DNA from: Eledone cirrhosa
Taxonomy: Eukaryota
Reading direction: 5' to 3'
DNA length: 64,000 bases
Assembly: GCA_964016885.1 (NCBI GenBank)
Contig: OZ024744.1
Span: 12,276,001 to 12,340,000 of the forward strand
This document shows positions 8,324 through 60,974 of this stretch, piece by piece (positions within the stretch are counted from its first letter, which is position 1; every line of letters starts with the position of its first letter). Both the position numbers and the translations under genes were made by a program. The notes beneath the pieces were generated by a model, which was not told the origin of the DNA, did no database searches, and saw nothing but the letters and a program-made list of their open reading frames with translations.

Positions 8324-9290
8324 GTTATCCCATATATAACATGTGCCATGACAGATGTTATCCCATATATAACATGTGACATGAGAGACGTTATCCCAAA
8401 TATAACATGACATGACAGATGTTATCCCAAATATAACATGTCATGACAGATGTTATCCCAAATATAACATGTGACATGACAGATGTTATCCCAAATATAA
8501 CATGTCATGACAGATGTTATCCCAAATATAACATGTGACATGACAGATGTTATCCCAAATATAACATGTGTCATGACAGATGTTATCCCAAATATAACAT
8601 GTGACATGACAGATGTTATCCCAAATATAACATGTCATGACAGATGTTATCTCAAATATAACATGTGACATGACAGACGTTATCCCATAAGCAACCTGTG
8701 ACATGACAGACTTTATCCCAAATATAAAATGTGACATGACAGACGTTATCCCATATATAACATGTGTCATGACAGTTGTTATCCCAAATATAACATGACA
8801 TGACAGATGTTATCCCAAATATAACATGTGACATGACAGATGTTATCCCAAATATAACATGTGACATGACAGATGTTATCCCAAATATAACATGTGTCAT
8901 GACAGATGTTATCCCAAATATAACATGTGACATGAAAGATGTTATGCCAAATATAACATGTCATGACATGTTATTCCAAATATAACATGTGACATGACAG
9001 ACGTTATCTCATAAGCAACCTGTGACATGACAGACTTTATCCCAAATATAAAATGTGACATGACAGACGTTATCCCATATATAACATGTGTCATGACAGT
9101 TGTTATCCCAAATATAACATGACATGACAGATGTTATCCCAAATATAACATGTGACATGACAGACGTTATCCCAAATATAACATCTGACATGACAGATGT
9201 TATCCAATAAACAACATGTAACATGACCCCAAATACAACGTGACATGACAGATGTTTTTCCCAAATACAACATGTCACATGACAGATGTT
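8324..9290. repeat. ~33-bp minisatellite (30/31/33-bp variants), ~30 units; consensus GTTATCCCAAATATAACATGTGACATGACAGAT
   Basis: Direct periodicity; degenerates toward 9290; internal 324-bp duplication (marker ATAAGCAACC at 8687 and 9011). Confidence 0.98.
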
Positions 9291-9342: not shown

Positions 9343-9776
9343 CCTGCCTGGTACCCCTCTTGAAGATGAATGTCCCTGCAGTGGCACAGTACCTCCATCT
9401 GTGACATTTTCACAAATGCCATTGTAGAGTAGTTGTGGACGAGTTCAGTCTGCATCTGCTCTCTTGCTGCCTTAATGTAATCTGGCTCCCCTGTCACACC
9501 GTCCTAAATGACATCATCTAAAGGAGCGTTCATACAGCCAGTTTCCTCGTCTCATGGATCCAGCTGGATTCAACCATGTTGTTACCAAACACCCTCATGG
9601 ATTAACCCTCTTCCCTTTCAAGGAAGGCAAATCCCTACCTTGGGATGTGACTTGTTCTCTGCCTCCAATCATGTCACTTCGGCCAAGACCTCGGGCTCCG
9701 CTGCTTGCAATACAGAGGAGAGGAAGATACCGGGGCCTGACAAACCACTTCATCTTTGTACCTGTCACAGTTGAGA
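9343..9776 (+). mobile_element. Decayed CRE-clade-like non-LTR retrotransposon, left part: CCHC zinc knuckle and first part of the RLE domain
   Basis: Manual translation from 9411 gives HKCHCRVVVDEFSLHLLSC...CHTVLNDII*RSVHTA, then across frameshifts DPAGF...KHPHGLTLFPFKEGKSLPWDVTC, SASNHVTSAKTSGSAACNTEERK and YRGLTNHFIFVPVTVE. This follows the CRE-type C-terminal motif order CxC..H..SC / RHxxLNDII / KRPDGLTL.P...GK.L.WD.TC / AA..AE..K..KY / F.PVA.ET.G. Stops and frameshifts show it is dead. Confidence 0.85.
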
Positions 9777-12700
9777 TCTGGTGTCCTTGGTATCCATATT
9801 ACCACAGAGGAGAGAAAGGTCTCTAGTGTCCTTGGTCTCCATATTACCACAGAGGAGACGAAGACCTCTGGTGTCCTTGGTCTCCATATTACCACAGAGG
9901 AGAGGAAGACCTCTAGTGTCCTTGCTCCCCACATTACCAGAGAGACGAGGAAGACCTCTGGTGTCCTTGGCCTCCATATTACCACAAATGAGAGGAAGAC
10001 CTCTGGTGTCCTTGGTCTCCATATTACTACAGAAGAGAGGAAGACCTCTGGTGACCTTGGACTCCATATTACCAAAGAGGAGAGGAAGACCTCTAGTGTC
10101 CTTGGTCCCCACATTACCGCAGAGGAGAGGAAGAACCCTAGTGTCCTTGCTCCCCACATTACCACAGAGAAGAGCACCTCTGATGTCCTTGGTCTCCATA
10201 TTACCACAGAGCAGAGGAAGCCCCCTAATGTTCTTCGTCTCCATATTACCACAGAGGAGAGGAAGACCTCTAGTGTCCTTGGTCCCCATATTACCACAGG
10301 GGAGAGGAAGACCCCTAGTGTCCTTGGTCTCCATATTACCACAGAGGAGAAGACCTCTGGTGTCCTGTGTCTCCATATTACCACAGAGGAGAGGAAGACC
10401 TCTGGTGTCCTTGGTCTCCATATTACCACAGAGGAGAGGAGGACCCCTAGTGTCCTTGGTCTCCATATTACCACAGAGGAGAGGAAGACCTCTGGTGTCC
10501 TTGGTCTCAACATTACCACAGAGGAGAGGAAGACCTCTAGTGTCCTTGGTCTCTACATTACCACAGAGGAGAGGAGCTCTGGTGTCCGTGGTCTCCACAT
10601 TACCACAGAGGAGAGGAAGACCTCTGGTGTCCTTGGTCCCCATATTACCACAGAGGAGAGGAAGACCTCTCGTGTCCTTGGTCCCCATATTACCACAGAG
10701 GAGAAGACCTCTGGTGTCCTTGGTCTCTACATTACCACAGAGGAGAGGACCTCTATTGTCCTTGGTCTCCACATTACCACAGAGGAGAGGAAGACCTCTT
10801 GTGTCCTTGGTCCCCACATTACCACAGAGGAGAGGAAGACCCCTAGTGTCCTTGGTCCCCACATTACCACAGAGGAGAGGAAGACCCCTAGTGTCCTTGG
10901 TCCCCACATTACCACAGAGAAGAGCACCTCTGATGGCTTTGGTCTCCACATTACCACAGTGGAGAGGAAGACTTCTGGTGTCCTTGGTCTCCACATTACC
11001 ACAGAGTAGAGGAAGACCCCGAGTGTCCTTGGTCTCCACATTACCACAGAGGAGAGGACCTCTGGTGTCCTTGGTCATCACATTACCACAGAGGAGAGAA
11101 CCTCTGGTGTCGTTGGTCTCCACATTACCACAGAGGAGAGGAAGACCTCTGGTGCCTTGGTCTTCATATTACCACAGAGGAGAGAAAGATCTATGGTGTC
11201 CTTGGTCCCCACATTACCACAGAGGAGCGGAAGACCCCTAGTGTCCTTGGTCCCCACATTACCACAGAGAAGAGCACCTCTGATGTCTTTGGACTCCACA
11301 TTACCACAGTGGAGAGGAAGACCTCTGGTGTCCTTGGTCTCCACATTACCACAGAGTAGAGGAAGACACCGAGTGTCCTTGGTCTCCACATTACCACAGA
11401 GGAGAGGAAGACCTCTAGTGTCCTTGGTCCCCATATTACCACAGAGGAGAGAACCTCTGATATCCTTGGTCTCCACATTACCACAGAGGAGAGGAAGACC
11501 CCTGGTGTCCTTGGTCTCCATATTACCACAGAGGTGAGGAAGACCTCTAGTGTCCTTGGTCTCAACATTACCACAGAGGAGAGGACCTCTGGTGTCCTTG
11601 GTCTCCACATTACCACAGAGGAGAGGAAGACCTCTGGTGCCTTGGTCTCCATATTACCACCGAGGAGAGGACTTCTGCTGTCCTTGGTCTCCACATTACG
11701 ACAGAGGAGAGGAAGACCTCTGGTGTCCTTGGTCCCCATATTATCACAGAGAAGAGGACCTCTGGTGTCCTTGGTCTCCATATTACCACAGAGGAGAGGA
11801 AGACCTCTGGTGTCCTTGGTCTCCATATTACCACAGAGGAGAGGATCTCTGGTGTCCTTGGTCTCCATATTACCACAGAGGAGAGGAAGACCTATGGTGT
11901 CCTTGGTCTCCATATTACCACAGAGGAGAGGAAGACCTATGGTGTCCTTGGTCTACATATTACCACAGAGGAGAGGAAGACCTCTGGTGACCTTGGTCTC
12001 CATATTACCACAGAGGAGAGGTCCTCTAATGTCCTTGGTCTCCATATTACCACAGAGGAGAGGAAGACCTCTGGTGTCCTTGGTCCCCATATTACCACAG
12101 AGGAGAGGAAGACCTCAGGCGTCCTTGGTCTCCATATTACCACAGAGGAGAGGAAGACCTCTGGTGTCCTTTGTCTCCATATTACCACAGAGGAGAGGAC
12201 CTCTGATGTCCTTGGTCTCCATTTTACCACAGAAGAGAGGAAGACCTCTAGTGTCCTTGGTCTCCACATTACCACAGAGGAGAGAAGCTCTGGTGTCCTT
12301 GGTCTCCACATTACCACAGAGGAGTGGAAGACCTATGGTGTCCTTGGTCCCCGTATTACCACAGAGGAGAGGACGACCTCTGGTAACCTTGGTCCCCATA
12401 TTACCACAGAAGAGAGGAAGATCTCTGGTGTCCTTGGTCCCCTTATTACCACAGAGGAGAGGACGACCTCTGGTGTCCTTGGTCCCCACATTACCACAGA
12501 GGAGAGGACGACCTCTGGTGTCCTTGGTCTCCATATTACCACAGAGGAGAGGACGACCTCTGGTGTCCTTGGTCTCCACATTACCACAGAGGAGAAGAAG
12601 ACCTCTGGTGTCCTGGCTCCCCACATTACCACAGACGAGAGGAAGACCACTGGGGTCCTTGGTCTCCAGATTACTACAGAGGAGAGGAAGACCTCTGGTG

Positions 12701-15700
12701 ACTTGGTCTCCATATTACCACAGAGGAGAGGAAGACCTCTGGTGTCCTTGGTCCCCATATTATCACAGAGAAGAGGACCTCTGGTGTCCTTGGTCTCCAT
12801 ATTACCACAGAGGAGAGGAAGACCTCTGGTGTCCTTGGTCTCCATATTACCACAGAGGAGAGGATCTCTGGTGTCCTTGGTCCCCACATTACCACAGAGA
12901 AGAGGACCTCTGGTGTCCTTGGTCTCCATATTACCACAGAGGAGAGGAAGACCTATGGTGTCCTTGGTCTCCATATTACCACAGAGGAGAGGAAGACCTA
13001 TGGTGTCCTTGGTCTACATATTACCACAGAGGAGAGGAAGACCTCTGGTGACCTTGGTCTCCATATTACCACAGAGGAGAGGTCCTCTAATGTCCTTGGT
13101 CTCCATATTACCACAGAGGAGAGGAAGACCTCTGGTGTCCTTGGTCCCCATATTACCACAGAGGAGAGGAAGACCTCAGGCGTCCTTGGTCTCCATATTA
13201 CCACAGAGGAGAGGAAGACCTCTGGTGTCCTTTGTCTCCATATTACCACAGAGGAGAGGACCTCTGATGTCCTTGGTCTCCATTTTACCACAGAGGAGAG
13301 GACCTCTGGTGTCCTTGGTCTCCACATTACCACAGAGGAGAGGACGACCTCTGGTGTCCTTGGTCTCCACATTAACACAGAGGAGAAGAAGACCTCTGGT
13401 GTCCTGGCTCCCCACATTACCACAGACGAGAGCAAGACCACTGGTGTCCTTGATCTCCAGATTACTACAGAGGAGAGGAAGACCTCTGGTGACTTGGTCT
13501 CCATATTACCACAGAGGAGAGGAAGACCTCTGGTGTCCTTGGTCCCCATATTACCACAGACAAGAGGACCTCTGGTGTCCTTGGTCTCCATATTACCACA
13601 GAGGAGAGGAAGACGGCTGATGTCCTTGGTCTCCATATTACCTCAGAGGAGAGGAAGACCTCTGGTGTCCTTGGTCTCCATATTACCTCAGAGGAGAGGA
13701 AGACCTCTGATGTCCTTGGTCTCCACATTACCACAGAGGAGAGGACCTCTGGTGTCCTTGGTCTCCACATTACCACAGAGGAGAGGAAGAACTCTGGTGT
13801 CCTTGGTCTCCATATTACCACAGAGACGAGGACGTGCTCTGGTGTCCTTGGTCTCCATATTACCCCAGAGGAGAGGAAGAGCTCTGGTGTCCTTGGTCTC
13901 CCAATTACCACAGAGGAGAGGAAGACCTCTGGTATCCTTGGTCCCCGTATTACCACAAAGGAGAGGACGACCTCTGGTAACCTTGGTTCCCATATTACCA
14001 CAGAGGAGAGGAAGATCTCTGGTGTCCTTGGTCCCCACATTACCACAGAGGAGAGGACGCCCTCTGGTGTCCTTGGTCTCCATATTACCACAGAGGAGAG
14101 GACGACCTCTGGTGTCCTTGGTCTCCACATTACCACAGAGGAGAAGAAGACCTCTGGTGTCCTTGGTCCCAACATTACCACAGAGGAGAGGAAGACCTCT
14201 GGTGTCCTGGCTCCCCACATTACCACAGACGAGAGGAAGACCACTGGTGTCCTTGGTCTCCATATTACCACAGAGGAGAGGAAGACCTCTGGTGACTTGG
14301 TCTCCATATTACCACAGAGGAGTGGAAGACCTCTAGTGTCCATGGTGTCCACATTGACACAGACAGAGGAAGACCTGTGGTGTCCTTGGTCCCCACATTA
14401 CCACCATAGAGAGAAAGACCTCTGGTGTCTTTGCCTCCCCACATTACAACACAGGAGAGGAAGACCTCTGTTGTCCTTGCTCTCCATATTATCACAGAGG
14501 AGAGGACCTCTGATACCTTGGTCTCCACATTACCACAGAGGAGAGGAAGACCTCTGGTGTCCTTGGTCCCCACATTACCACAGAGCAGAGGGAGACCTCT
14601 AGTGTCCTTGGTCTCCATATTACCACAGAGGGAGGACCTCTGGTGTCCTTGGTCTCTACATTACCACAGTGGAGAGGAAGACCTCTAGTGTCCTTGGTCT
14701 CCATATTACCACAGAGGAGAGGAAGACTTCTGGTGTCCTTGGTTCCCATATTACCACAGAGGAGAGGAAGACCTCTCGTGCCCTTGGTCCCCATAATACC
14801 ACAGAGGAGAGAAGCTCTGGTGTCCTTGGTCTCTACATTACCACAGAGAAGAGGACCTCTATTGTCCTTGGTCTCCACATTACCACAGAGGAGAGGAAGA
14901 CCTCTAGTGTCCTTGGTCCCCACATTACCACAGAGGAGAGGAAGACCCCTAGTTTCCTTGGTCCCCACATTACCACAGAGCTGAGGAAGACCCCTAGTGT
15001 CCTCGGTCCCCACATTACCACAGAGGAGAGGAAGACCCCTAGTGTCCTTGGTCTCCATATTACCACAGAGGAGAGGAAGACCCCTAGTGTCCTTGGTCCC
15101 CACATTACCACAGAGAAGAGCACCTCTGATGTCTTTGGACTCCACATTACCACAGTGGAGAGGAAGACACCGAGTGTCCTTGGTTTCCACATTACCACAG
15201 AGGAGAGGAAGACCCCTAGTGTCCTTGGTCCCCACATTACCACAGAGAAGAGCACCTCTGATGTCTTTGGACTCCACATTACCACAGTGGAGAGGAAAGA
15301 CCCCGAGTGTCCTTGGTCTCCACATTACCACAGAGGAGAGGACCTCTGGTGTCCTTGGTCATCACATTACCACAGAGGAGAGAACCTCTGGTGTCCTTGC
15401 TCTCCACATTACCACAGAGGAGAAGAAGACCTCTGGTGCCTTGGTCTTCATATTACCACAGAGGAGAGAAAGATCTATGGTGTCCTTGGTCCCCACATTA
15501 CCACAGAGGAGAGGAAGACCCCTAGTGTCCTTGGTCTCCATATTACCACAGAGGAGAGGAAGACCCCTAGTGTCCTTGGTCCCCACATTACCACAGAGAA
15601 GAGCACCTCTGATGTCTTTGGACTCCACATTACCACAGTGGAGAGGAAGACACCGAGTGTCCTTGGTTTCCACATTACCACAGAGGAGAGGAAGACCCCT

Positions 15701-18700
15701 AGTGTCCTTGGTCCCCACATTACCACAGAGAAGAGCACCTCTGATGTCTTTGGACTCCACATTACCACAGTGGAGAGGAAGACCCCGAGTGTCCTTGGTC
15801 TCCACATTACCACAGAGGAGAGGACCTCTGGTGTCCTTGGTCATCACATTACCACAGAGGAGAGAACCTCTGGTGTCCTTGCTCTCCACATTACCACAGA
15901 GGAGAAGAAGACCTCTGGTGCCTTGGTCTTCATATTACCACAGAGGAGAGAAAGATCTATGGTGTCCTTGGTCCCCACATTACCACAGAGGAGAGGAAGA
16001 CCCCTAGTGTCCTTGGTCTCCATATTACCACAGAGGAGAGGAAGACCCCTAGTGTCCTTGGTCCCCACATTACCACAGAGAAGAGCACCTCTGATGTCTT
16101 TGGTCTCCACATTACCACAGAGTAGAGGAAGACACCGAGTGTCCTTGGTTTCCACATTACCACAGAGGAGAGGAAGACCTCTAGTTTCCTTGGTCCCCAT
16201 ATTACCACAGAGGAGAGAACCTCTGATATCCTTGGTCTCCACATAACCACAGAGGAGAGGAAGACCCCTGGTGTCCTTGGTCTCCATATTACTACAGAGG
16301 AGAGGAAGACTTCTAGTGTCCTTGGTCTCAACATTACCACAGAGGAGAGGACCTCTGGTGTCCTTGGTCTCCACATTACCACAGAGGAGAGGAAGACCTC
16401 TGGTGCCTTGGTCTCCATATTACCACAGAGGAGAGGATCTCTGGTGTCCTTGGTCCCCACATTACCACAGAGAAGAGGACCTCTGGTGTCCTTGGTCTCC
16501 ATATTACCACAGAGGAGAGGAAGACCTATGGTGTCCTTGGTCTACATATTACCACAGAGGACAGGAAGACCTCTGGTGACCTTGGTCTCCATATTACCAC
16601 AGAGGAGAGGACCTCTGATATCCTTGGTCTCCATGTTACCACAGAGGAGAGTAAGACATCTGGTGTCCCTGGTCTCCACATTACGACAGAGGAGAGGTCC
16701 TCTGATGTCCTTCGTCTCCATATTACCACAGAGGAGAGGAAGACCTCTGGTGTCCTTGGTCCCCATATTACCACAGAGGAGAGGAAGACCTCAGGCATCC
16801 TTGGTCTCCATATTACCACAGAGGAGAGGAAGACCTCTGGTGTCCCTGGTCTCCACATTACGACAGAGGAGAGGTCCTCTGATGTCCTTCGTCTCCATAT
16901 TACCACAGAGGAGAGGAAGACCTCTGGTGTCCTTGGTCCCCATATTACCACAGAGGAGAGGAAGACCTCAGGCATCCTTGGTCTCCATATTACCACAGAG
17001 GAGAGGAAGACCTCTGGTGTCCTTGGTCCCCACATTACCACAAAGGAGAGGAAGACCTCTGGTGTCCTTGGTCTCCACATTACCACAGAGGAGAGGAAGA
17101 ACTCTGGTGTCCTTGGTCTCCATATTACCACAGAGGAGAGGAAGACCTCTGGTGACTTGGTCTCCACATTACCACAGAGGAGAGGAAGAACTCTGGTGTC
17201 CTTGGTCTCCATATTACCACAGAGGAGAGGAAGACCTCTGGTGACTTGGTCTCCATATTACCACAGAGGAGTGGAAAACCTCTAGTGTCCTTGGTGTCCA
17301 CATTAACACAGACAGAGGAAGACCTGTGGTGTCCTTGGTCCCCACATTACCACCATAGAGAGGAAGACCCCTGGTGTTTTTGCTCCCCACATTACAACAG
17401 AGGAGAGGAAGACCTCTGTTGTCCTTGCTCTCCATATTATCACAGAGGAGAGGACCTCTGATACCTTGGTCTCCACATTACCACAGAGGAGAGGAAGACC
17501 TCTGGTGTCCTTGGTCCCCACATTACCACAGAGCAGAGGGAGACCTCTAGTGTCCTTGGTCTCCATATTACCACAGAGGGAGGACCTCTGGTGTCCTTGG
17601 TCTCCACATTACCACAGAGGAGAGGAAGACCTCTGGTGTCCTTGGTCTCTACATTACCACAGAGGAGAGGAGCTCTGGTGTCCTTGGTCCCCACATTACC
17701 ACAGAGGAGAGGAAGACCTCTAGTGTACTTGGTCTCCATATTACCACAGAGGAGAGGACCTCTGATGTCCTTGGTCTCCACATTACCACAGAGGAGAGGA
17801 CCTCTGGTGTCCTTGGTCCCCACATTACCACAGAGGAGAGGAAGACCTCTAGTGTCCTTGGTCTCCATATTACCACAGAGGAGAGGAAGACTTCTGGTGT
17901 CCTTGGTCCCCATATTACCACAGAGGAGAGGAAGAGCTCTAGTGTCCTTGGTCTCCACATTACCACAGAGGAGAGAAGCTCTGGTGTCCTTGGTCTCCAC
18001 ATTACCACAGAGGAGAGGAAGACCTCTGGTGTCCTTGGTCCCCATATTACCACAGAGAAGAGGACCTCTGGTGTCCTTGGTCTCCATATTACCACAGAGG
18101 AGAGGAAGACCTCTGATGTCCTTGGTCTCCACATAACCAGAGAAAAGAGGAAGTCTTCTGGTGTCCTTGGTCTCCATATTACCACAGAGGAGACGAAGAC
18201 CTCTGGTGTCCTTGGTCTCCATATTACCACAGAGACGAGTACGACCTCTGGTGTCCTTGGTCTCCATATTACCACCATAGGGAGGAAGACCTCTGGTGTC
18301 TTTGCTCCCCACATTACAACAGAGGAGAGGAAGACCTCTGTTGTCCTTGCTCTCCATATTATCACAGAGGAGAGGACCTCTGATACCTTGGTCTCCACAT
18401 TACCACAGAGGAGAGGAAGACCTCTGATGTCCTTGGTCTCCACATAACCAGAGAAAAGAGGAAGTCTTCTGGTGTCCTTGGTCTCCATATTACCACAGAT
18501 GAGAGGAAGACCTCTGGTGTCCTTGGTCTCCATATTACCACAGAGACGAGTACGACCTCTGGTGTCCTTGGTCTCCATATTACCCCAGAGGAGAGGAAGA
18601 GCTCTGGTGTCCTTGGTATCCAAATTACCACAGAGGAGAGGACGACCTCTGGTAACCTTGGTCCCCATATTACCACAGAGGAGAGGAAGATCTCTTGTGT

Positions 18701-45700: not shown

Positions 45701-48700
45701 GAGGACCTCTGATGTCCTTGGTCCCCATATTACCACAGAGGAGAGAACCTCTGATGGCCTTGGTCTCCACATCACCACAGAGGAGAGGAAGACCCCTGGT
45801 GTCCTTGGTCTCCATATTACCACAGAGGAGAGGAATACCTCTAGTGTCCTTGGTCTCAACATTACCACAGAGGAGAGGAGCTCTGGTGTCCTTGGTCTCC
45901 ACATTACGACAGAGGAGACGAAGCCCTCTGGTGTCCTTGGTCTCCATATTGCCTCCGAGGAGAGGACTTCTGCTGTCCTTGGTTTCCACATTACTACAGA
46001 GGAGAGGAAGACCGCTGGTGTCTTTGCTCTCTAAATTATAACAGAGGAGAAGACCTCTGGTGTCCTTGGTCTCCACATTACCACAGAGTAGAGGACGACC
46101 TGTGGTGTCCTTGGTCCACATATTGCCACAGAGGAGAGGAAGACCTCTGGCGTCTTTGGTCCCCATATTACAACAGAGGAGAGGACAACCCCTGGTGTCC
46201 TAGGTCCCCACATTACCACAGAGGAGAGGTCGACCTCTGGTGTCCTTGGTCTCCACATTACCACAGAGGAGAGGAAGACCTCTCGTGTCCTTGCTCCCCA
46301 CATTACCACAGACGAGAGGAAGAAAACTAGTCTCCTTGGTCTCCACATTACCACAGATTAGTGGAGGACCTCTAGTGTCCTTCGTCCCCACATTACCACA
46401 GAGGAGAGGAAGACCCCTAGTGTGCTTGGTCTCCATATTACCACAGAGGAGAGGAAAACCCCCTAGTGTGCTTGGTCTCCATATTACCACAGAGGAGAGG
46501 AAGACCCCTAGTGTCCTTGGTCTCCATATTACGACAGAGGAGAGGAAGACCTCTAGTGTCCTTGGTCCCAACATTACCACAGAGGAGAGGAACTCTGATG
46601 GCCTTGTTCTCCATATTACCACAGAGGAGAGGAACTCTGATGTCCTTGGTCTCCATATTACCACACAGGAGAGGACCTCTGGTGTCCTTGGTCTCCATAT
46701 TCCCACAGAGGAGGGGAAGACCTCTGATGTCCTTGGTCTCCACATTACCACAGGAGAGAGGAAGAGCTCTAGTGTCCTTGCTCCCCAAATTACCACAGAG
46801 AAGAGGACCTCTGGTGTCCTTGGTCTCCATATTACCACAGAGGAGAGGAAGACCTCTTATGTCCTTGGTCTCCACATTACCACAGGGGAGAGGAGCTCTG
46901 GTGTCCTTAGTCTCCATATTACCACAAGGAGAGGACCTCTGATGTCATTGGTCTCCACATAACCACAGGGGCGAGGAGCTCTGGTATCCTTAGTCTCCAT
47001 ATTACCACAAGGAGAGGACCTCTGATGTCCTTGGTCTCCACATTACCACAGAGGAGTAGAAGACTTATAGTGTTCTTGGTCTCCATATTACCACAGAGGA
47101 GTAGAAGACTTCTAGTGTCCTTGGTCCCCACATTACCACAGATTAGAGTGACCTCTGGTGTCCTTGGTCTCCACATTACCACAGAGGAGATGAAGACCTC
47201 TGGTGTCCTTGGTCTCCAAATTACCTACAGAGGAGAGCTCCTCCGATGTCCTTGGTCTCCATATTACCACAGAGGAGAGATCCTATGATGACCTTGGTCT
47301 CCATATTACCACAGAAAAGAGGAAGACCTCTAGTGTCCTTGGTCTCTACATTACCACGGAGGAGGGGAACACCTCTGCTGTCCTTGGTCTCCACATTACC
47401 ACAGAGGAGAGGAAGACCTCTGGTGTCCTTTGTCTCCATATTACCACAGAGGAGAGGAAGACCTCTGGTGAACTTGGTCTCCATATAACCACAGAGGAGA
47501 GGAAGAGCTCTAGTGTCCATGGTCTCCACATTACCACAGAGGAGGGGAGGACCTCTGGTGTCCTCTGTCTCCATATTACCACAGACGAGAGTAAGACCTC
47601 TAGTGTCCTTGGTCGCCACATTACCAGAGAGGAGAGGACCTCTGGTGTCGTTGGTCCACATATTACCACAGAGGAGAAGACCTCTGGTGTCCTTGATCTC
47701 AACATTACCACAGAGGAGCGAACCTCTGGTGACCTTGGTCAACACATTACCACAGATGAGAGGATTTCTGGTGTCCTTGGTCTCCATATTAAAAACAGAG
47801 AAGAGGAGCTCTGGTGTCCTTGGTCTCCACATTATCACAGAGGAGAGGAAGACCTCTGGTGTCCTAGGTGTCCATATTACCACGGAGGAGAGGAAGACCT
47901 CTGGTGTCCTAGGTGTCCATATTACCACAGAGGAGAGGAAGACCTATGGTGTCCTTGGTCTCCATATTACCACAGAGGAGAGAAAGACCTCTGGTGTCCT
48001 TGGTCTACATATTACCACAGAGTTGAGGACCTCTGATGTCCTTGATTTCCATATTACCACAGAGGAGAGGAAGACCTCTGGTGTCCTAGGTGTCCATATT
48101 ACCACAGTGGAGAGGAAGACCTGTGGTGTCCTTGGTCTCCACATTACCACAGAGTAGAGGAAGACCCCGAGTGTCTGTCGTCTCCATATAACCACAGTGG
48201 AGAGGACCTCTAGTGTTCTTGGTCATCACATTACCACAGAGGAGAGAACCTCTGATGTCCTTGGTCTCCACATTACCACAGAGGAGAGGAAGACCTCTGG
48301 TGTCCTTGGTCTCCACATTACCACAGACGAGAGGACCTCTGCTGTCCTTGGTCTCCATATTACCACAGAGGAGAGGAAGAGCTCTGATATCCTTGGTCTC
48401 CATATTACCACAGAGGTTAAGACCTCTGGTGTCCTTGGTCTCCACATTACCACAGAGGAGAGGAAGACCCCTAGTGTCCTTGGTATCCATATTACCACAG
48501 AGGAGAGGAAGACCTCTGGTGTCCTTGGTCCCCATATTACCACAGAGTTGAGGACCTCTGGTTTCCTTGGTCTCCATATTACCACAGATAGAGGAAGTCC
48601 TCTGGTGTCCTTGGTGCCAATATTACCACAGAGGAGAGGACCTCTAGTAACTTGGTCTCCATATTACCACAGAGGAGAGGAAGTCCTCTGGTGTCCTTGG

Positions 48701-51700
48701 TCTCCATATTACCACAGAGGAGAGGAAGACCTCTGGTGTCCTGGTCTCCACATTACCACAGAGGAGAGGAAGACCCCTAGTGTCCTTGGTATCCATATTA
48801 CCACAGAGAGAGGAAGTCCTCTGGTGTCCTTGGTGCCAATATTACCACAGAGGAGAGGACCTCTAGTAACTTGGTCTCCACATTACCACAGAGAAGAGGA
48901 AGACCTCTGGTGTCCTTAGTCCCCATATTACCACAGAGGAGAGGAAGTCCTCTGGTGTCCTTGGTCTCCACATTACCACAGAGAAGAGGAAGACCTCTGG
49001 TGTCCTTGGTCTCCATATTACCACAGAGAAGAGGAAAACCTCTGGTGTCCTTGGTCCCCATATTACCACAGAGGAGAGGAAGATTTCTAGTGTCCTTGGT
49101 CTCCACTTTACCACAGAGAAGAGGACCTCTGGTGTCCTTGGTCTCCATATTACCACAGAGGAAAGGAGGACCTCTGGTGTCCTTGGTCTCCACATTACCA
49201 CAGAGGAGAGGAAACCCTCTGGTGTCCTTGGTCTCAGTATTACCACAGCGAAGAGGACCTCTGGTGTCCTTGGTGTCCACATTACCACAGAGGAGAGGAC
49301 ATCTGGTGTCCTTGTTCTCCATATTACCACAGAGGAGAAGACCTCTGGTTTCCTTGGTCCCCATACTACCAGAGGAGAGGACCTCTGGTGTCCTTGGACC
49401 TCACATTACCACAGAGGAGAGGAAGACCTCTGGTGTCCTTGGTCTCCACATTACCACAGAGGAGAGGAAGACCCCTAGTGTCCTTGATCCCCACATTACC
49501 ACAGAGGAGAGGACCTCTGGTGTCCTTGGTCTCCATATTAACACAGAGGAGAGGAAGACCTCTAGTGTACTTGGTCCCCACATTGCCACAGACGAGAGGA
49601 CCTCTGGTGTCCTTGTTCTTCAAATTACCACAGAGGAGAGGAAGACCTCTGGTGTCCTTGGTCTCCACATTACCACAGACGAGAGGACCTCTGGTGTCCT
49701 TGGTCCCCATATTACCACAGAGTTGAGGACCTCTGGTTTCCTTGGTCTCCATATTACCACAGAGAGAGGAAGTCCTCTGGTGTCCTTGGTGCCAATATTA
49801 CCACAGAGGAGAGGACTTCTAGTAACTTGGTCTCCATATTACCACAGAGGAGAGGAAGTCCTCTGGTGTCCTTGGTCTCCATATTACCACAGAGGAGAGG
49901 AAGACCTCTGGTGTCCTAGTCTCCACATTACCACAGAGGAGAGGAATACCCCTAGTGTCCTTGGTATCCATATTACCACAGAGGAGAGGAAGACCTCTGG
50001 TGTCCTTGGTCCCCATATTACCACAGAGGAGAGGAAGTCCTCTGGTGTCCTTGGTCTCCATATTACCACAGAGGAGAGGAAGTCCTCTGGTGTCCTTGGT
50101 CTCCATATTACCACAGAGGAGAGGAAGACCTCTGGTGTCCTGGTCTCCACATTACCACAGAGGAGAGGAAGACCCCTAGTGTCCTTGGTATCCATATTAC
50201 CACAGAGAGAGGAAGTCCTCTGGTGTCCTTGGTGCCAATATTACCACAGAAGAGAGGACCTCTAGTAACTTGGTCTCCACATTACCACAGAGAAGAGGAA
50301 GACCTCTGGTGTCCTTGGTCCCCATATTACCACAGAGGTGAGGAAGTCCTCTGGTGTCCTTGGTCTCCACATTACCACAGAGGAGAGGAAGACCCCTAGT
50401 GCCCTTGGTATCCATATTACCACAGAGGAGAGGAAGACCTCTGGTGTCCTTGGTCCCCATATTACCACAGAGTTGAGGACCTCTGGTTTCCTTGGTCTCC
50501 ATATTACCACAGAGAAAGGAAGTCCTCTGGTGTCCTTGGTGCCAATATTACCACAGAGGAGAGGAGCTCTAGTAACTTGGTCTCCACATTACCACAGAGA
50601 AGAGGAAGACCTCTGGTGTCCTTGGTCTCCATATTACCACAGAGAAGAGGAAGACCTCTGGTGTCCTTGGTCCCCATATTACCACAGAGGAGAGGAAGAT
50701 TTCTAGTGTCCTTGGTCTCCACTTTACCACAGAGAAGAGGACCTCTGGTGTCCTTGGTCTCCATATTACCACAGAGGAGAGGAGGACTTCTGGTGTCCTT
50801 GGTCTCCACATTACCACAGAGGAGAGGAAACCCTCTGGTGTCCTTGGTCTCAGTATTACCACAGCGAAGAGGACCTCTGATGTCCTTGGTGTCCACATTA
50901 CCACAGAGGAGAGGTCATCTGGTGTCCTTGTTCTCCATATTACCACAGAGGAGAAGACCTCTGGTTTCCTTGGTCCCCATACTACCAGAGGAGAGGACCT
51001 CTGGTGTCCTTGGACCTCACATTACCACAGCGGAGAGGAAGACCTCTGGTGTCCTTGGTCTCCACATTACCACAGAGGAGAGGAAGACCTCTCGTGTCCT
51101 TGGTCTCCATATTACCACAGAGGAGAGGAAGACCCCTAGTGTCCTTGATCCCCACATTACCACAGAGGAGAGGACCTCTGGTGTCCTTGGTCTCCATATT
51201 ACCACAGAGGAGAGGAAGACCTCTAGTGTACTTGGTCCCCACATTGCCACAGACGAGAGGACCTCTGGTGTCCTTGTTCTCCACATTACCACAGAGGAGA
51301 GAAAGATCTCTGGTGTCCTTGGTCCCTATATTACCACAGAGAAGAGGACATCTGGTGTCCTTGGTCTCCATATTACTACAGAGAGGAAGACCTCTGGTGT
51401 CCTTGGCCCCATATTAGCACAGAGGAGAGGAAGATGTCTAGTGTCCTTGGTCTCCATATTACCACAGAGGAGAGGACCTCTGATACCTTGGTCCCCACAT
51501 TACCACAGAGGAGGGGACCTCTGGTGTCCTTAGTCTCCATATTACCACAGAGGAGAGGACGACCTCTTGTGTCCTTGGTCCCCATATTGACACAGAGGAG
51601 AGGAAGACCTCTGGTATCCTTGGTCCCCACATTACCACAGAGGAGAGGAAGACCTCTGGTGTACTTGGTCTCCATATTACTACAGAGTAGAGGACCTCTG

Positions 51701-54700
51701 GTGTCCTTGGTTCCCATATTACCACAGAGAAGAGGACCTCTGGTGTCCTTGGTCCACATATTACCGCAGATAAGAGAACCTCTGATGTCCTTGGTCTCCA
51801 TATTACCACAGTGTAGAGGAAGATCTCTAGTGTCCTTGGTCTCCATATTAGCACAGAGGAGAGGAAGACTCTAGTGTACTTTGTCCCCACATTACCACAG
51901 AGGAGAGGACCTCTGGTGTCCTTGATCTCCACATTACCACAGAGGAGATGAAGACCTATGGTGTCCTTGGTCCTCACATTACCACAGAGGAGCAGACCTC
52001 TGATGTCCTTGGTCTCCATATTACCACAGAGGATAGGAAGATCTCTGGTGTCCTTGGTCCACATATTACAACAGAGAAGAGGACCCCTGGAGTCCTTGGT
52101 CTCCATATTACCACAGAGGAGAGGAAGACCTCTGGTGTCCTTGGCCCCATATTACCACAGAGGAGAGAACGACCTCTGGTGTCCCTGGTCCCCACATTAC
52201 CACAGAGGAGAGGACGACCTCTGGTGTCCTTTGTCCCCACATTATCACAGAGGAGAGGACCTCTGGTGTCCTTGGTCTCCACATTACCACAGAGGAGAGG
52301 AAGACCTCTGGTGTCCTTGGTCCTCACATTACCACAGAGGAGCAGACCTCTGGTGTCCTTGGTCTCCATATTTCCACAGAGAAGAGGAACTCTGATGTCC
52401 TTGGTCTCCATATTACGACAGAGGAGAGGACCTCTGGAGTCCCTGGTCCCCATATTTACACAGAGTAGAGGACCTCTGGTGTCCTTGGTCCCCATATTAC
52501 CACAGAGGAGAGGACGACCTCTGGTGTCCTTGGTCCCCACATTACCACAGAGGAGACGAAGACCTCTGGTGGCCTTGGTCCTCATATACCACAGAGGAGA
52601 GTACGTCTGGTGTCCTTGGTCTCCATATTACTACAGAAAGGAAGACCTCTGGTGTCCTTGGCCCCATATTAGCACAGAGGAGAGGAAGATTTCTAGTGTC
52701 CTTGGTCTCCATATTACCACAGAGGAGAGGACCTCTGATACCTTGGTCCCCACATTACCACAGAGGAGAGGACCTCTGGTGTCCTTGGTCTCCATATTAC
52801 CACAGAGGAGAGAACGACCTCTGGTGTCCTTGGTCCCCATATTGCCACAGAGGATAGGAAGACCTCTGGTGTCCTTGGTCTCCACATTACCACAGAGGAG
52901 TGGAAGACCTCTGGTGTCCTTGGTCCACATATTACAACAGAGAAGAGGACCCCTGGTGTCCTTGGTCTCCATATTACCACAGAGGAGAAGAAGACCTCTG
53001 GTGTCCTTGGCCCCATATTACCACAGAGGAGAGAACGACCTCTGGTGTCCCTGGTCCCCACATTACCACAGAGGAGAGGATGATCTCTGGTGTCCTTGGT
53101 CCCCACATTACCACAGAGGAGAGGAAGACCTCTGGTGTCCTTGGTCTCCACATTACCACAGAGAAGAGGAAGACCTCTGGTGTCCTTGGTCCTCATATAC
53201 CACAGAGGAGAGGACCTCTGGTGTCCTTGGTCTCCACATTACCACAGAGAAGAGGACGACCTCTGGTTTTCCTTGGCCCCCACATTACCACAGAGGAGAG
53301 GAAGACCTCTGGTCTCCTTCATCTCCACATTACCACAGAGGAGAGGACCTCTGGTGTCCTTGGTCTCCACATTACCACAGAGGAGAGGAAGACCTCTGGT
53401 GTCCTTGGTCTCCATATTACCACAGAGGAGAGGAAGACCTCTGGTGTCCTTGGTCTCCATATTGCAACAGGGGAGAGGAAGACCTCTTGTGTCCTTGGTG
53501 TCCATATTACCACAGAGGAGAGGAAGACCTCTAGTGTCCTTGGTCTCCATGTTACCACAGAGGAGAGGAAAACCTCTGGTGTCCTTGATACCCACATTAC
53601 CACAGAGGAGAGGAAGACCTCTGGTGTCCTTGGTCTCCATATTACCACAGAGGAAAGGACGACCTCTAGTGTACTTTGTCCCCACATTACCACAGAGGAG
53701 AGGACCTCTGGTGTCCTTGGTCTCCATATTACCACAGAGGAGATGAAGACCTCTTGTGTCCTTGGTCTCCATATTACCACAGAGGAGAGGAATACCCCTA
53801 GTGTCCTTGGTCCCCACATTACCACAGAGGAGAGGACGACCTCTGGTGTCCTTGGTCCCCACATTACCACAGAGGAGAGGAAGACCTCTTGTGTCCTTGG
53901 TCCCCACATTACCACAGAGGAGAGGACGACCTCTGGTGTCCTTGGTCCCCACATTACTACAGAGGAGAGGAAGACCTCTTGTGTCCTTGGTCCCCACATT
54001 ACCACAGAGGAGAGGACCTCTGGTGTCCTTGGTCTCCATATTACCACAGAGGAGATGAAGACCTCTTGTGTCCTTGGTCTCCATATTACCACAGAGGAGA
54101 GGAATACCCCTAGTGTCCTTGGTCCCCACATTACCACAGAGGAGAGGACGACCTCTGGTGTCCTTGGTCCCCACATTACCACAGAGGAGAGGAAGACCTC
54201 TTGTGTCCTTGGTTCCCACATTACCACAGAGGAGAGGACGACCTCTGGTGTCCTTGGTCCCCACATTACCACAGAGGAGAGGAAGACCTCTTGTGTCCTT
54301 GGTCCCCACATTACCACAGATGAGAGGACGACCTCTGGTCTCCTTGATCTCAACATTACCACAGAGGAGTGGACCTCTGGTGTCCTTGGTCTCCATATTA
54401 CCACAGAGGAGAGGAAGACCTCTGGTGTCCTTGGTCTCCATATTACCACAGAGGAGAGGAAGACCTCTTGTGTCCTTGGTCTCGATATTACCACAGAGGA
54501 GAGGAAGGCACCTAGTGTCCTTGGTCCCGACATTACCACAGAGGAGAGGACCTCTGGTGTCCTTGATCTCCATATTACCACAAAAGAGAGGAAGACCTCT
54601 AGTGTACTTGGTCCCCACATTACCACAGAGGAGAGGACCTCTGGTGTCCTTGGTCTTCACATTACCACAGAGGAGAGGAAGACCTCTGGTGTCCTTGGTC

Positions 54701-57700
54701 CCCACATTACCACAGAGGAGCAGACCTCTGGTGTCCTTGGTCTCCATATTTCCACAGAGAAGAGGAACTCTGATGTCCTTGGTCTCCATATTACGACAGA
54801 GGAGAGGACCTCTGGTGTCCTTGGTCCCCACATTATGACAGAGGAGAGGCCCTCTGGTGTCCTTGGTCCCCAAATTACGACAGAGGAGAGGAAGACCTCT
54901 GGTATCCTTAGTCTCAATATTACCACAGAGGAGAGGACCTCTGGCGTCCTTGGTCCCCATATTACCACAGAGGAGAGGACCTCTGGCGTCCTTGGTCTCC
55001 ATGTTACCACAGAGGAGAGGAAGACCTCTGGTCTCCTTGGTCCCCATATTACCACAGAGGAGAGGACCTCTGGTGTCCTTGGTCTTCACATTACCACAGA
55101 GGAGAGGAAGACCTCTGGTGTCCTTGGTCTCCACATTACCACAGAGGAGCAGACCTCTGGTGTCCTTGGTCTCCATATTTCCACTGAGAAGAGGAACTCT
55201 GATGTCCTTGGTCTCCATATTACGACAGAGGAGAGGACCTCTGGTGTCCTTGGTCCCCACATTATGACAGAGGAGAGGCCCTCTGGTGTCCTTGGTCCCC
55301 AAATTACGACAGAGGAGAGGAAGACCTCTGGTATCCTTAGTCTCAATATTACCACAGAGGAGAGGACCTCTGGCGTCCTTGGTCCCCATATTACCACAGA
55401 GGAGAGGACCTCTGGCGTCCTTGGTCTCCATGTTACCACAGAGGAGAGGAAGACCTCTGGTCTCCTTGGTCCCCATATTACCACAGAGGAGAGGACCTCT
55501 GGCGTCCTTGGTCTCCATGTTACCACAGAGGAGAGGAAGACCTCTGGTGTCCTTGGTCTCCATATTGCAACAGGGGAGAGGAAGACCTCTTGTGTCCTTG
55601 GTGTCCATATTACCACAGAGGAGAGGAAGACCTCTAGTGTCCTTGGTCTCCATATTACCACAGAGGAGAGGAAAACCTCTGGTGTCCTTGATACCCACAT
55701 TACCACAGAGGTGAGGAAGACCTCTGGTGTCCTTGGTCTCCATATTACCACAGAGGAAAGGAAGACCTCTAGTGTACTTTGTCCCCACATTACCACAGAG
55801 GAGAGGACCTCTGGTGTCCTTGGTCTCCATATTACCACAGAGGAGATGAAGACCTCTTGTGTCCTTGGTCTCCATATTACCACAGAGGAGAGGAATACCC
55901 CTAGTGTCCTTGGTCCCCACATTACCACAGAGGAGAGGACGACCTCTGGTGTCCTTGGTCCCCACATTACCACAGAGGAGAGGAAGACATCTTGTGTCCT
56001 TGGTCTCCATATTACCACAGAGGAGAGGAAGACACCTAGTGTCCTTGGTCCCAACATTACCACAGAGGAGAGGACCTCTGGTGTCCTTGATCTCCATATT
56101 ACCACAAAAGAGAGGAAGACCTCTAGTGTACTTGGTCCCCACATTACCACAGAGGAGAGGACCTCTGGTGTCCTTGGTCTCCACATTACCACAGAGGAGA
56201 GGAAGACCTCTGGTGTCCTTGGTCCCCACATTACCACAGAGGAGCAGACCTCTGGTGTCCTTGGTCTCCATATTTCCACAGAGGAGAGGACCTCTGGCGT
56301 CCTTGGTCTCCATGTTACCACAGAGGAGAGGAAGACCTCTGGTCTCCTTGGTCCCCATATTACCACAGAGGAGAGGACCTCTGGCGTCCTTGGTCTCCAT
56401 GTTACCACAGAGGAGAGGAAGACCTCTGGTGACTTGGTCCCCACATTACCACAGAGGAGAGGAAGACCTCTGGTCTCCTTGGTCTCCATATTACCACAGA
56501 AGAGAGGGCCTCTGGTGTCCTAGGTCTCCATATTACCACAGAGGAGAGGAAGACCTCTGGTGTCCTTGGTCCCCACATTACCACAGAGGAGAGGAAGACC
56601 TCTGGTGTCCTTGGTCTCCACATTACCACAGAGGAGAGGACCTCTGGTGTCCTTGGTATCCATATTACCACAGAGGAGAGGAAGACCTCTGGTGTCCTTG
56701 GTCTCTATATTACCACAGAGGAGAAGAAGACCTCTGGTGTCCTTGGCCCCCACACTACCACAGAGGAGAGGACGACCTCTGGTTTTCCTTGGTCCCCACA
56801 TTACCACAGAGGAGAGGAAGACCTCTGGTCTCCTTGATCTCCACATTACCACAGAGAAGAGGACGTTTGAGTTCCTTGGTCTCCATACTACCACAGAGGA
56901 GAGGAACTCTAGTGTCCTTGGTCTCCATATTACCACAGAGGTGTGGACCTCTGATGTCCTTGGTCTCCATATTACCACAGAGGAGAGGAAGACCTCTAGT
57001 GTCCTTGGTCTCCATATTACCACAGAGGAGAGGAAGACCTCTGGTGTCCTTGGTCCCCACATTACCACAGAGGAGAGGAAGACCTCTGGTGTCCTTGGTC
57101 TCCACATTACCACAGAGGAGAGGACCTCTGGTGTCCTTGGTCTCCATATTACCACAGAGGAGAGGAAGACCTCTGGTGTCCTTGGTCTCTATATTACCAC
57201 AGAGGAGAAGAAGACCTCTGGTGTCCTTGGCCCCCACACTACCACAGAGGAGAGGACGACCTCTGGTTTTCCTTGGTCCCCACATTACCACAGAGGAGAG
57301 GAAGACCTCTGGTCTCCTTGATCTCCACATTACCACAGAGAAGAGGACGTTTGAGTTCCTTGGTCTCCATACTACCACAGAGGAGAGGAACTCTAGTGTC
57401 CTTGGTCTCCATATTACCACAGAGGTGTGGACCTCTGATGTCCTTGGTCTCCATATTACCACAGAGGAGAGGAAGACCTCTAGTGTCCTTGGTCTCCATA
57501 TTACCACAGAGGAGAGGAAGACCTCTGGTGTCTTTGGTCCCCACATTACCACAGAAGAGAGGAAGATCTCTGGTATCCTTGTTCTCCATATTGCTACAGA
57601 GGAGAGGAAGACCTCTGGTGTCCTTGGTCTCCATATTACCACAGAGGAGAAGAAGACCTCTGGTGTCCTTGGTCCCCATATTACCACAGAGGAGAGGAAG

Positions 57701-57745
57701 ACCTCTGGTGTCCTTGGTCCTCATATTACCACAGAGGAGAGGAAG
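9777..57745. repeat. ~48-kb tandem satellite, 45-bp monomer (42-bp variant common), roughly 1,100 units; consensus ACCTCTGGTGTCCTTGGTC(T/C)CCA(T/C)ATTACCACAGAGGAGAGGAAG
   Basis: Uninterrupted head-to-tail units in one orientation, with no inserted element seen. Unit lengths are multiples of 3 and the consensus lacks stops in 5 of 6 frames, which explains the many overlapping ORFs. Confidence 0.99.
34536..41339. repeat. Near-identical 3,388-bp tandem block duplication within the satellite (34536-37923 / 37924-~41339)
   Basis: ORF pairs offset by exactly 3388 with near-identical translation (34799/38187, 35005/38393, 35661/39049, 36896/40284, 37032/40420). The only difference noticed is ATTGCCACAG versus ATTGCAACAG (~35728/39116). 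Confidence 0.95.
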
Positions 57746-57992
57746 TTAGTTAACTACTGGGGCCTGACTGACCACTTACTCTTTGTACCTGTCTAAGTGG
57801 AGACCTCCGGTGCCCCTAGTCCCCGCACTGCTGATTTCCTCTGTAAATAGAAAGACAACACCCTGTTTGAGGAAGTCGACCTGTGAGGTGGGGTGGATGT
57901 TGCAGCGTGTGTCTCTGACTATTCTCCATAGTAACACCTTTGCCATTTTGTCAGCGGAATGCAGCCAAAACACTGCTCAGACTGGGGTGTAG
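57746..57992 (+). mobile_element. Decayed CRE-clade-like retrotransposon, right part: end of RLE domain to the ORF stop
   Basis: Reads on from the last satellite unit: (TEERK)LVNYWGLTDHLLFVPV*VETSGAPSPRTADFL, then after a frameshift EVGWMLQRVSLTILHSNTFAILS...*, matching the terminal L.QR.S.AI.RGN...IL motif. Followed by T-rich sequence and a short (AAT)n at ~58122-58136. Confidence 0.85.
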
Positions 57993-58158
57993 TATCTGTC
58001 TCTCCACCTCTCCCTTTCATTCTTGGCTTGATTCTTTTTTACTTTTTCTTCTTTTCATTACCTTTTTTTGTTCCCTTTAATATTTTTTTTTTGTTTTTGT
58101 ATAAACAACTTCATTTAACAAAATAATAATAATAATTATAATTTTAATTATAATAATT

Positions 58159-58530: not shown

Positions 58531-58635
58531 ACATTTGATCACAAACTAAAAAAAAACATCAGAAATGTTGATTTTAACAATTTGCAGAGATTTATATAAA
58601 TATTTTGTTTTTGTTTCTTTTATTTTCTGTTTTAG

Positions 58636-58807
58636 ATTTGAAGAGGATTTACAAAATCTCACCCTTCTGAACAGCCAGCTGAAAAAGAAGCAGAAACATT
58701 TTAGGAAATTTTGTTCCTTTATGCAAAAGATTTTGAGTTCTTGTAATGAATTCCATGAGATCAGAGACATTATTTCAAGATATGATACCTTGATTTCAAC
58801 ATTTAAT
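58636..58807 (+). CDS. CCDC42: Internal coding exon (172 bp, phase 2 to phase 0) of a CCDC42/CFAP73-family cilia/flagella coiled-coil protein
   Basis: Polypyrimidine tract plus acceptor TTTTCTGTTTTAG|A and donor AAT|GTAAGA. The open frame FEEDLQNLTLLNSQLKKKQKHFRKFCSFMQKILSSCNEFHEIRDIISRYDTLISTFN is coiled-coil-like; EFHEIRDIISRYDTL matches my recollection of the CCDC42/CFAP73 EF.EI.E.I.RY.TL motif. Exon status is firmer than the paralogue name. Confidence 0.7.
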
Positions 58808-60134: not shown

Positions 60135-60569
60135 TGCTGTTGCTGCTGCTGTTGTTGTTGTTGTTGTTGTTGGGCCCCAGGTTAGACATGTTGCTGTTGT
60201 TGTTGTTGGGCCCCAGGTTAGACATGTTGCTGTTGTTGTTGTTGGGCCCCAGGTTAGACATGTTGTTGTTGTTGTTGTTGGGCTCCAGGTTAGACATGTT
60301 GTTGTTGTTGTTGTTGTTGTTGTTGGGGCCCAGGTTAGACATGTTGTTGTTGTTGTTGTTGTTGGGCCCCAGGTTAGACATGTTGTTGTTGTTGTTGTTG
60401 GGCCCCAGGTTAGACATGTTGTTGTTGTTGTTGTTGGGCCCCAGGTTAGACATGTTGTTGTTGTTGTTGTTGGGCCCCAGGTTAGACATGTTGTTGTTGT
60501 TGTTGTTGTTGTTGGGCCCCAGGTTAGACATGTTGTTGTTGTTGTTGTTGTTGGGGCCCAGGTTAGACA

Positions 60570-60600
<31 letters not shown>

Positions 60601-60917: not shown

Positions 60918-60956
<39 letters not shown>

Positions 60957-60974
60957 CGGGCCCCAGGTTAGACA

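What the first reader, a model, noticed from the sequence alone, without database searches (positions are those of the whole stretch)
9343..57992. A 48-kb satellite born inside the endonuclease domain of a CRE-like retrotransposon, with its assembly history preserved in both flanks
Seen: removing the array reunites one RLE C-terminus. Let A=ACAGAGGAGAGGAAG (TEERK), B=the YRGLT.H..FVPV.VE segment and C=ACCTCTGGTGTCCTTGGTCCCCACATTACC (TSGVLGPHIT). The locus reads zinc knuckle/PD-motif region-A(9712-9726)-B-(C-A)x~1100-B'-C'(57803-57832)-RLE end. The 45-bp monomer is 15 bp of A plus 30 bp of C with B skipped, and C' differs from the monomer at 8 of 30 sites, all transitions. Known: satellites can derive from TEs, usually from UTR, LTR or terminal sequence. 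Inference: tandem duplication of A-B-C, deletion of B at a short GA-rich microhomology (GGAAGA/GGAGA), then roughly 1000-fold amplification in situ. I do not know a described case from an RLE catalytic-domain coding region.
Basis: partly seen in the sequence, partly recalled or inferred. Interest (0 to 1): 0.9.

Follow-up and report, generated by a model that had tools for sequence, protein, structure and literature searches.

The report
Satellite cassette passed between dead retrotransposons
A 48-kb repeat array sits inside the enzyme-coding tail of a dead jumping gene; it likely grew there, but its repeat unit also occurs in seven other dead copies and was likely passed between copies by recombination, which would show how one small rearrangement can seed many satellites.

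Summary
Observation confirmed: about 1,090 units of 45/42 bp (9777-57745) lie between two colinear halves of the RLE endonuclease end of an RT+RLE (CRE-like) LINE, inside an intron of a CCDC42-like gene. Birth at this locus is not supported as written. The monomer's C-A junction is absent from plain copies but present at 38 loci on 16 contigs, mostly as 102-bp in-frame units, and has seeded 68-, 71- (27 kb), 80-, 88- and 130-bp arrays. The 45/42-bp unit occurs at 8 loci, 7 within C28:12-32 Mb; two are internally more diverged and keep ancestral bases. Among the C28 loci only the B segment behind the array is related (14.6% vs 24.6% for random copies); the outer parts are as distant as random copies. 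Best reading: an (array + B) cassette was likely moved into separate resident copies by ectopic recombination, then amplified locally. The window could still be the donor.

The parts
9350..9711 (+). U: 5'-truncated, decayed RLE N-half (zinc-knuckle and PD-motif region) of the resident LINE copy
   Evidence: 74% to family consensus positions 79-462; blastx to RT+RLE proteins
9712..9726 (+). A: 15 bp ending in the codon of the first K of the K..KY helix
   Evidence: motif role from PMC4838377 passages
9727..9775 (+). B1: first B segment, with an 8-bp deletion; its 3' half carries rare states shared with other cassette loci
9777..57745 (+). Satellite array of about 1,090 (C-A) units; 684 x 45 bp and 292 x 42 bp among 1,069 parsed segments; no B inside; stops in all six frames
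34536..41339 (+). 3,388-bp tandem duplication inside the array at 100% identity (very recent, or an assembly artefact)
57746..57802 (+). B': last B segment; the only non-array part related to the other C28 45-bp loci
57803..57832 (+). C': ancestral-type C, 4 of 30 differences from the family consensus
57833..58111 (+). D: RLE C-terminal end and T-rich 3' UTR of the resident copy
   Evidence: 81% to consensus D 1-289; blastx
58634..58807 (+). Context: exon of a CCDC42-like (DUF4200) gene; the previous exon match ends at C28:12,067,054, so the array lies sense-strand in an intron of about 267 kb

Best explanation
The array is a satellite made from 45 bp of the RLE-coding end of a dead CRE-like LINE; it was likely amplified at this locus, but its seed, a (C-A)n-B' cassette, likely arrived by homology-guided recombination into a resident copy and was not made here. 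Steps: (1) shown: an old RT+RLE family left many 5'-truncated copies. (2) shown: an in-frame 102-bp A-B-C duplication with one distinctive junction exists at 38 loci; inferred: it arose once, perhaps by a template switch that copied 5 bases from an inverted site in D. (3) shown: secondary rearrangements gave 45/42-, 68-, 71-, 80-, 88- and 130-bp units; inferred: the 45-bp unit is a slip at the AG(A) microhomology shared by the A end and the B end. (4) inferred: the 45-bp cassette with its B' was copied into several resident copies within 20 Mb of C28, by gap-repair gene conversion or circle integration. (5) inferred from locus-specific variants and nested duplications: unequal exchange expanded each array on its own, from 3 to about 1,090 units. 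No function is proposed; it behaves as neutral intronic DNA.
For: Among C28 45-bp loci, the last B is 14.6% apart (78/534) against 24.6% for random sets of plain copies; 0 of 3,000 sets were as close. D 24.6% vs 26.4% (P=0.33), U 28.8% vs 29.0% (P=0.50), first B 24.1% vs 25.8% (P=0.33) and last C 24.9% vs 25.9% (P=0.43) show no kinship. The transversion at consensus 522 is in 5 of 5 last B's, 0 of 18 other junction loci then in hand and 1 of 46 plain copies. Junction copies fall into both 3'-end haplotype classes (9:13:4 unclear of 26) like plain copies (17:23:5 of 45). An AU test rejects one clade for 20 junction copies in a 67-row D tree (p=0.021). No colinear flank is shared outside the element. 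Junction loci avoid the large contigs: 5 of 27 on C1-C4 against at least 87 of 135 plain matches, p=1e-5. They also cluster: 16 of 39 lie within 2 Mb of another, against 6.6 expected. Arrays share 1 variant haplotype across 28 locus pairs, and T20 is 0.66 here against 0.00-0.25 elsewhere.
Against: Segments are short (57 bp for B) and old (about 16-20% from consensus), and B was singled out after looking. The D tree does not reject one clade for the four 45-bp copies (p=0.555). The D haplotype classes rest on 8 sites and could partly reflect mutation context; two recombinant masters could also give two classes. C28:31.27, C28:31.79 and C22 share one rare D state and similar 5' ends, as whole-element copies would. 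C28:15.89 ends in poly-A with a 5' end inside the array, which looks like a retro-insertion. In the window, B1 and B' share rare states 522T and 528A, which also fits local origin. Multi-unit loci are easier to find, which biases the contig comparison. No circle or conversion intermediate was observed.
Confidence: 0.58

Rival explanations
1. Local birth (first reader, amended): this copy already had the 102-bp duplication; the 45-bp unit arose here and the window was the donor for the other C28 loci.
For: It is the largest array and has the longest 5' flank of the junction loci examined. B1 and B' share rare states 522T and 528A.
Against: C28:15.59 and C28:16.97 are more diverged inside (0.197 vs 0.131) and keep C20/C24, while the window is 0.55-0.79 T20 along its whole length. 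522T/528A also occur in 102-bp-unit loci on C21 and C22. B' is closer to other loci's B' (12-16%) than to the window's own B1 (9/49, 18%). The junction itself is genome-wide.
Confidence: 0.17
2. Retrotransposed master: one or two source elements carrying the internal repeat were copied whole by TPRT, and the arrays then expanded in place.
For: Variable 5' ends with common T-rich or poly-A 3' ends and unrelated flanks. The 102- and 45/42-bp units, the only ones found at many loci, keep the reading frame. Internal repeats are known in trypanosomatid CRE elements (PMC12278014 passage).
Against: Whole-element copying predicts shared D and U states at the rate seen in B'; none were found. Both D classes are present. 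7 of 8 45-bp loci lie in 0.65% of the genome, unlike plain copies.
Confidence: 0.15
3. Recurrent formation: the sequence directs the same template switch or slip again and again, during reverse transcription or replication, so each locus made its own junction.
For: It explains junctions on both D classes. The 5-base filler has a 10-base inverted match in D; 27 of 1,024 fillers do as well. C8:41.19 has the 45-bp unit without the C28 B markers. A second, unrelated junction made 41-43-bp arrays on C23 and C7.
Against: One junction base that is a CpG in the family is A at 33 of 38 loci, against 14 of 46 at that site in plain copies (partly ascertainment), which points to shared descent. Fillers do not mirror each copy's own D site (read by eye). 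It does not explain B' kinship on C28.
Confidence: 0.1

Closest known systems
ORF-derived satellites: PROsat and Pvc20 (L1 ORF2), chicken HinfI (CR1 partial ORF2), rye E3900 (gag), Chenopodium CficCl-61-40 (CACTA Tnp2) - review PMC9659126; section 2 read whole, Table 1 seen as passages
   Same: Satellite monomer taken from protein-coding TE sequence; the review concludes that any part of a TE can serve.
   Different: None listed is from an RLE domain ('endonuclease' occurs 0 times in that text). Here the array is still inside its parent element, and intermediate 102-bp stages survive at dozens of loci.
Maize CRM1TR/CRM4TR (Sharma et al. 2013, PMC3648361; abstract and outline only)
   Same: Arrays wholly derived from a retrotransposon, repeated births from one region, locus-specific variants.
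   Different: Those come from LTR/UTR with large monomers, and little or no movement between loci was found; here the seed appears to have moved between resident copies.
Drosophila Rsp-like spreading through 1.688 clusters on the X (Sproul et al. 2020, PMC7403614; abstract and section 'Mechanisms of Rsp-like movement' read)
   Same: A rare repeat spreads along one chromosome by homology or microhomology with an older, abundant resident repeat, then expands by unequal exchange.
   Different: There the landing pads are another satellite and eccDNA was measured; here they are dead copies of the very LINE the satellite came from, and no circles were tested.
TE-borne tandem repeats: Helitron/Helentron central repeats, miDNA4-MITE (PMC9659126 section 2.1), trypanosomatid CRE internal repeats (PMC12278014 passages)
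   Same: Short arrays dispersed inside copies of an element, some later amplified.
   Different: There the element carries the repeat as a unit; here the element ends around the C28 arrays show no common descent.

Membership tests
RLE-type non-LTR retrotransposon (parent family) | RT domain followed by a C-terminal endonuclease in one ORF | tested here: met
   Homologues of the L059 RLE stretch mostly carry PF00078; genomic copies L140-L147 match RT through RLE colinearly; best PDB hits are R2 proteins. The window copy itself lacks RT (5'-truncated).
RLE-type non-LTR retrotransposon (parent family) | CCHC knuckle, RH, PD..D and K..KY motifs | tested here: met
   Invariant C703 C705 H715 C719 R728 H729 P762 D763 K809 Y813 in alignment A1; open family consensus; motifs defined in PMC4838377 passages. 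Decayed in the window.
CRE clade | RT phylogeny grouping with CRE1/SLACS/CZAR and Repbase CRE elements | not testable with these tools
   No named CRE reference was returned. The label rests on recalled motif resemblance and on a passage that CRE types occur in cephalopods (PMC10294476).
CRE clade | N-terminal zinc finger(s) | not tested
   Cys-pair motifs are visible in some homologues; the 5' end of this genome's family was not examined.
CRE clade (trypanosomatid members) | Site-specific insertion in spliced-leader genes | tested here: not met
   Copies are dispersed in unrelated flanks; feature from PMC12278014.
Non-LTR insertion | Poly-A or simple tail and target-site duplication at this locus | tested here: inconclusive
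   T-rich UTR and AT-rich tail present; best flank match is 7 bp and not at the border.
Satellite DNA | Long head-to-tail array with locus-specific homogenisation | tested here: met
   48 kb, 7.3% mean divergence of 45-mers, window-specific T20/T24, nested duplications.
Satellite born in situ | Monomer and its junction unique to, or oldest at, this locus | tested here: not met
   the window as donor is not excluded.
TE-borne repeat (moved with the whole element) | Element ends share descent across array-bearing loci | tested here: not met
   D, U, first B and last C no closer than random copies; the D tree alone is uninformative for the four 45-bp copies.
Homology-guided spread (Rsp-like type) | Shared junction, insertion into resident repeats, clustering on one chromosome | tested here: met
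   insertion into residents is inferred from mosaic kinship.
Homology-guided spread (Rsp-like type) | Extrachromosomal circles or pre-insertion alleles seen directly | not testable with these tools
   No relatives of this genome are held; runs were contigs only.

The most novel reading that the evidence does not exclude
Dead copies of a LINE act as landing pads: one template-switch junction in the endonuclease gene spread from copy to copy by ectopic recombination, without transposition, and seeded a whole set of satellites (45/42, 71, 80, 102, 130 bp), two of them tens of kilobases long. Satellite birth here is contagious within a TE family, and every stage is preserved in one genome.
Probability: 0.4. 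Interest if true: 0.8.

Novelty: new variant of a known kind. Interest (0 to 1): 0.58.

Why it matters
How satellites start and reach new loci is usually inferred from end products. Here one genome holds the plain parent, the first duplication, several secondary monomers and arrays from 1 to about 1,090 units, all anchored to a coding sequence whose ancestral state can be read. That makes transposition, ectopic conversion and independent birth separable with sister-species assemblies. It also warns that an array with intact TE flanks does not prove birth at that locus.

Tried and rejected
Coding repeat: rejected; 976 of 1,047 short units are multiples of 3, but all six frames hold 159-554 stops. 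Segmental duplication of the C28 loci: no colinear shared flank in about 4 kb each side of 9 loci. Splicing as the cause of B skipping: no GT/AG borders (read). Pfam found no family for four RLE pieces; the Atlas gave only unnamed clusters. Kinship of the window's outer parts to a CRE remnant inside a 2.3-kb unit on C18/C28: rank 1 of 73 in D by a thin margin after selection, 23 of 55 in U, distance 47/191; inconclusive. The 10-bp U deletion shared with C9 is not diagnostic; 4 of 38 plain copies have a deletion there. No TSD. The neighbouring 40-, 33- and 36-bp arrays do not match the family. Sequencing runs: no RNA holder listed; run X4 (another organism code and study, kind unknown) holds only monomer pieces at depth about 2 and neither flank, not used as evidence. 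The orthologous locus in other species was not seen, so ancestry of the empty site stays open. Literature: 9 searches found no RLE-derived satellite; the library lacks most subscription papers and no supplements were read. Earlier scan notes: retrozyme arrays and one targeting note, unrelated; nothing by sequence or words.

Full report
Observation. The window is G000:C28:12,276,001-12,340,000 of a 3.0-Gb genome. The nearest named proteins are from Octopus species. The array spans 9777-57745 with period 45 and 1089.9 copies. My parse gave 1,069 segments: 684 of 45 bp, 292 of 42 bp, and 7.3% mean divergence among the 45-mers. There is no B inside, and stops occur in all frames. A, B, B' and C' sit as described, and C' differs from the stated C at 8 of 30 sites, all transitions. 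Contigs of sample S1 cross both borders without a difference, so the layout is not a join artefact; this is probably the assembled sample.

Parent element. Both flanks hit one dispersed family (446 and 1,647 first-look candidates, 40 scored each), and plain copies carry them in register as U-A-B-C-D. A consensus of 51 plain loci (60 fetched; 9 dropped as window, tandem-bearing or duplicate) reads as an open frame ending the ORF, with A-B-C equal to 102 bp. An open stretch from L059 found 40 longer proteins, most with PF00078. Their alignment shows the CCHC, RH, PD..D and K..KY residues described for R2 (PMC4838377, passages). A profile's best PDB hits are R2 proteins. Longer genomic copies match RT through RLE. 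So the parent is an RT+RLE LINE. 'CRE' is a recalled resemblance, backed only by a passage that CRE types occur in cephalopods (PMC10294476); it was not tested by phylogeny.

The junction is not local. The C-to-A join of the monomer is absent from the plain consensus; a simple join would differ from it at 5 of 45 positions. A 32-base pattern of junction plus A plus B start gave 56 matches at 27 loci on 13 contigs, with 0 in the reversed control. All searches together gave 38 loci with the full junction and one with it partly deleted, on 16 contigs. Most have 1-15 units of about 102 bp. Others have secondary units: 68 bp (C23:8.83), 71 bp (C26:19.46-19.48, 378 junctions over 27 kb), 80 bp (C17), 88 bp (C21:2.08, C26:5.93) and 130 bp (C24:17.2). 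The census is incomplete: 48 reverse and 1 forward of 1,390 junction matches lie outside fetched loci. A base that is CpG in the family is A at 33 of 38 junctions against 14 of 46 plain copies, which suggests one origin; some loci were found with patterns holding that base. The 5-base filler has a 10-base inverted match in D, reached by 27 of 1,024 possible fillers, so templated insertion is suggestive only.

The 45/42-bp unit. Exact A-to-C junctions (108 of the 45-bp type, 62 of the 42-bp type) all fall in known loci. Eight loci hold the unit: the window, C28:15.59 (128 junctions), 15.89 (13), 16.97 (354), 30.24 (135, with an inversion and interspersed B's), 31.27 (4), 31.79 (3) and C8:41.19 (9). 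Four read U-A-B-(C-A)n-B'-C' like the window; the others lack one side. C28:15.59 and 16.97 have pairwise divergence 0.197 against 0.131 here and keep C at monomer positions 20 and 24, where the window is 0.66 and 0.58 T. One variant haplotype is shared across 28 locus pairs. A 3,388-bp perfect duplication and many 300-900-bp near-perfect ones lie inside the window array. This fits local amplification by unequal exchange. Because both B's are kept, the unit is best read as a duplication of C-A at the AG(A) shared by the ends of A and B, not as loss of B after one duplication.

How it spread. No colinear flank is shared outside the element. Among C28 loci the last B is 14.6% apart against 24.6% for random plain sets (0 of 3,000 as close; for the four loci that keep D, 15.2%, P=0.001). 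D, U, first B and last C are no closer than random (P=0.33-0.50). Rare states in B' (486C, 522T, 528A, 531G) mark the lineage, and 522T/528A also occur in 102-bp loci on C21 and C22. Junction copies split over both D haplotype classes like plain copies, and one clade for 20 of them is rejected at p=0.021. They are scarce on C1-C4 (5 of 27 against at least 87 of 135) and clustered (16 of 39 within 2 Mb, 6.6 expected, p=0.001; without C28, 10 of 31, p=0.03). I infer that an internal cassette was copied into separate resident copies by homology.

Results against this reading. The D tree does not reject a clade of the four 45-bp copies (p=0.555). Window against C28:30.24 alone gives p=0.08 for rare states in B' versus D. 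Three loci share one rare D state. C28:15.89 looks like a poly-A-tailed insertion. B1 and B' of the window share two rare states, so the window may be the donor. All segments are short and old.

Context. The array lies sense-strand about 0.9 kb before an exon of a CCDC42-like gene, in an intron of about 267 kb judged from exon matches. A 40-bp array of at least 28 kb and a 33-bp array abut it upstream. No effect on the gene was tested.

Comparison and verdict. Satellites from TE ORFs are known (PMC9659126, section 2 read), as are retrotransposon-derived arrays in maize (PMC3648361, abstract) and homology-guided spread of Rsp-like repeats (PMC7403614, abstract and one section). Internal repeats in CRE elements are noted in PMC12278014 (passages); PMC5753468 (passages) gave only the clade list. 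Nine searches found no RLE-derived satellite. The RLE origin alone is a modest addition. The preserved series of stages and the mosaic kinship are the stronger result. New variant of a known kind; interest 0.58.

Noticed in passing
window 58634-58807 (+); other exons at C28:12,035,650-12,067,054 and 12,357,866-12,358,039: CCDC42-like (DUF4200) gene whose intron of about 267 kb holds the 45-, 33- and 40-bp arrays.
   Followed up: partly
window 6-7992 and L132-L133 (C28:12,256,001-12,276,000): 40-bp satellite, at least 28 kb, running past the fetched region; no match to the CRE-like family.
   Followed up: partly
window 8324-9290 and 60153-61387: 33-bp array (30 copies) and a 36-bp array with a variable (TGT)n tract; origins not traced.
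   Followed up: no
window 61600-64000 (+): Decayed LINE with RVT_1 (E=4e-20) and a PHD-like finger at 62979-63680; RTE-like by recalled resemblance.
   Followed up: partly
L158-L188; C18:5-12 Mb, C28:46-47.6 Mb, C370, C1379, C1635-6: A CRE remnant with a 34-bp deletion sits inside a unit of about 2.3 kb, 90-94% identical between copies and clustered in megabase regions (most of 103 pattern matches); carrier not identified.
   Followed up: partly
C26:19,457,215-19,484,284 (L134-L136, L148): 27-kb array of a 71-bp unit with the same junction, very homogeneous; the 3' part of the element is missing.
   Followed up: partly
C28:30,235,528-30,242,018 (L091-L092): Mixed 45/42/102-bp array with an internal inversion of about 2.3 kb; may preserve an intermediate stage.
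   Followed up: partly
C23:7.16 Mb (L102) and C7:10.01 Mb (L108): 43- and 41/43-bp arrays from the same C segment with a different junction: an independent birth from the same region.
   Followed up: partly
L052:2436-3065: 210-aa open RLE stretch of a related family (64% to the consensus), perhaps a younger lineage.
   Followed up: no
L121 (C23:0.74 Mb): A 71/72-bp junction array sits between two inverted tRNA-like sequences, read by eye.
   Followed up: no
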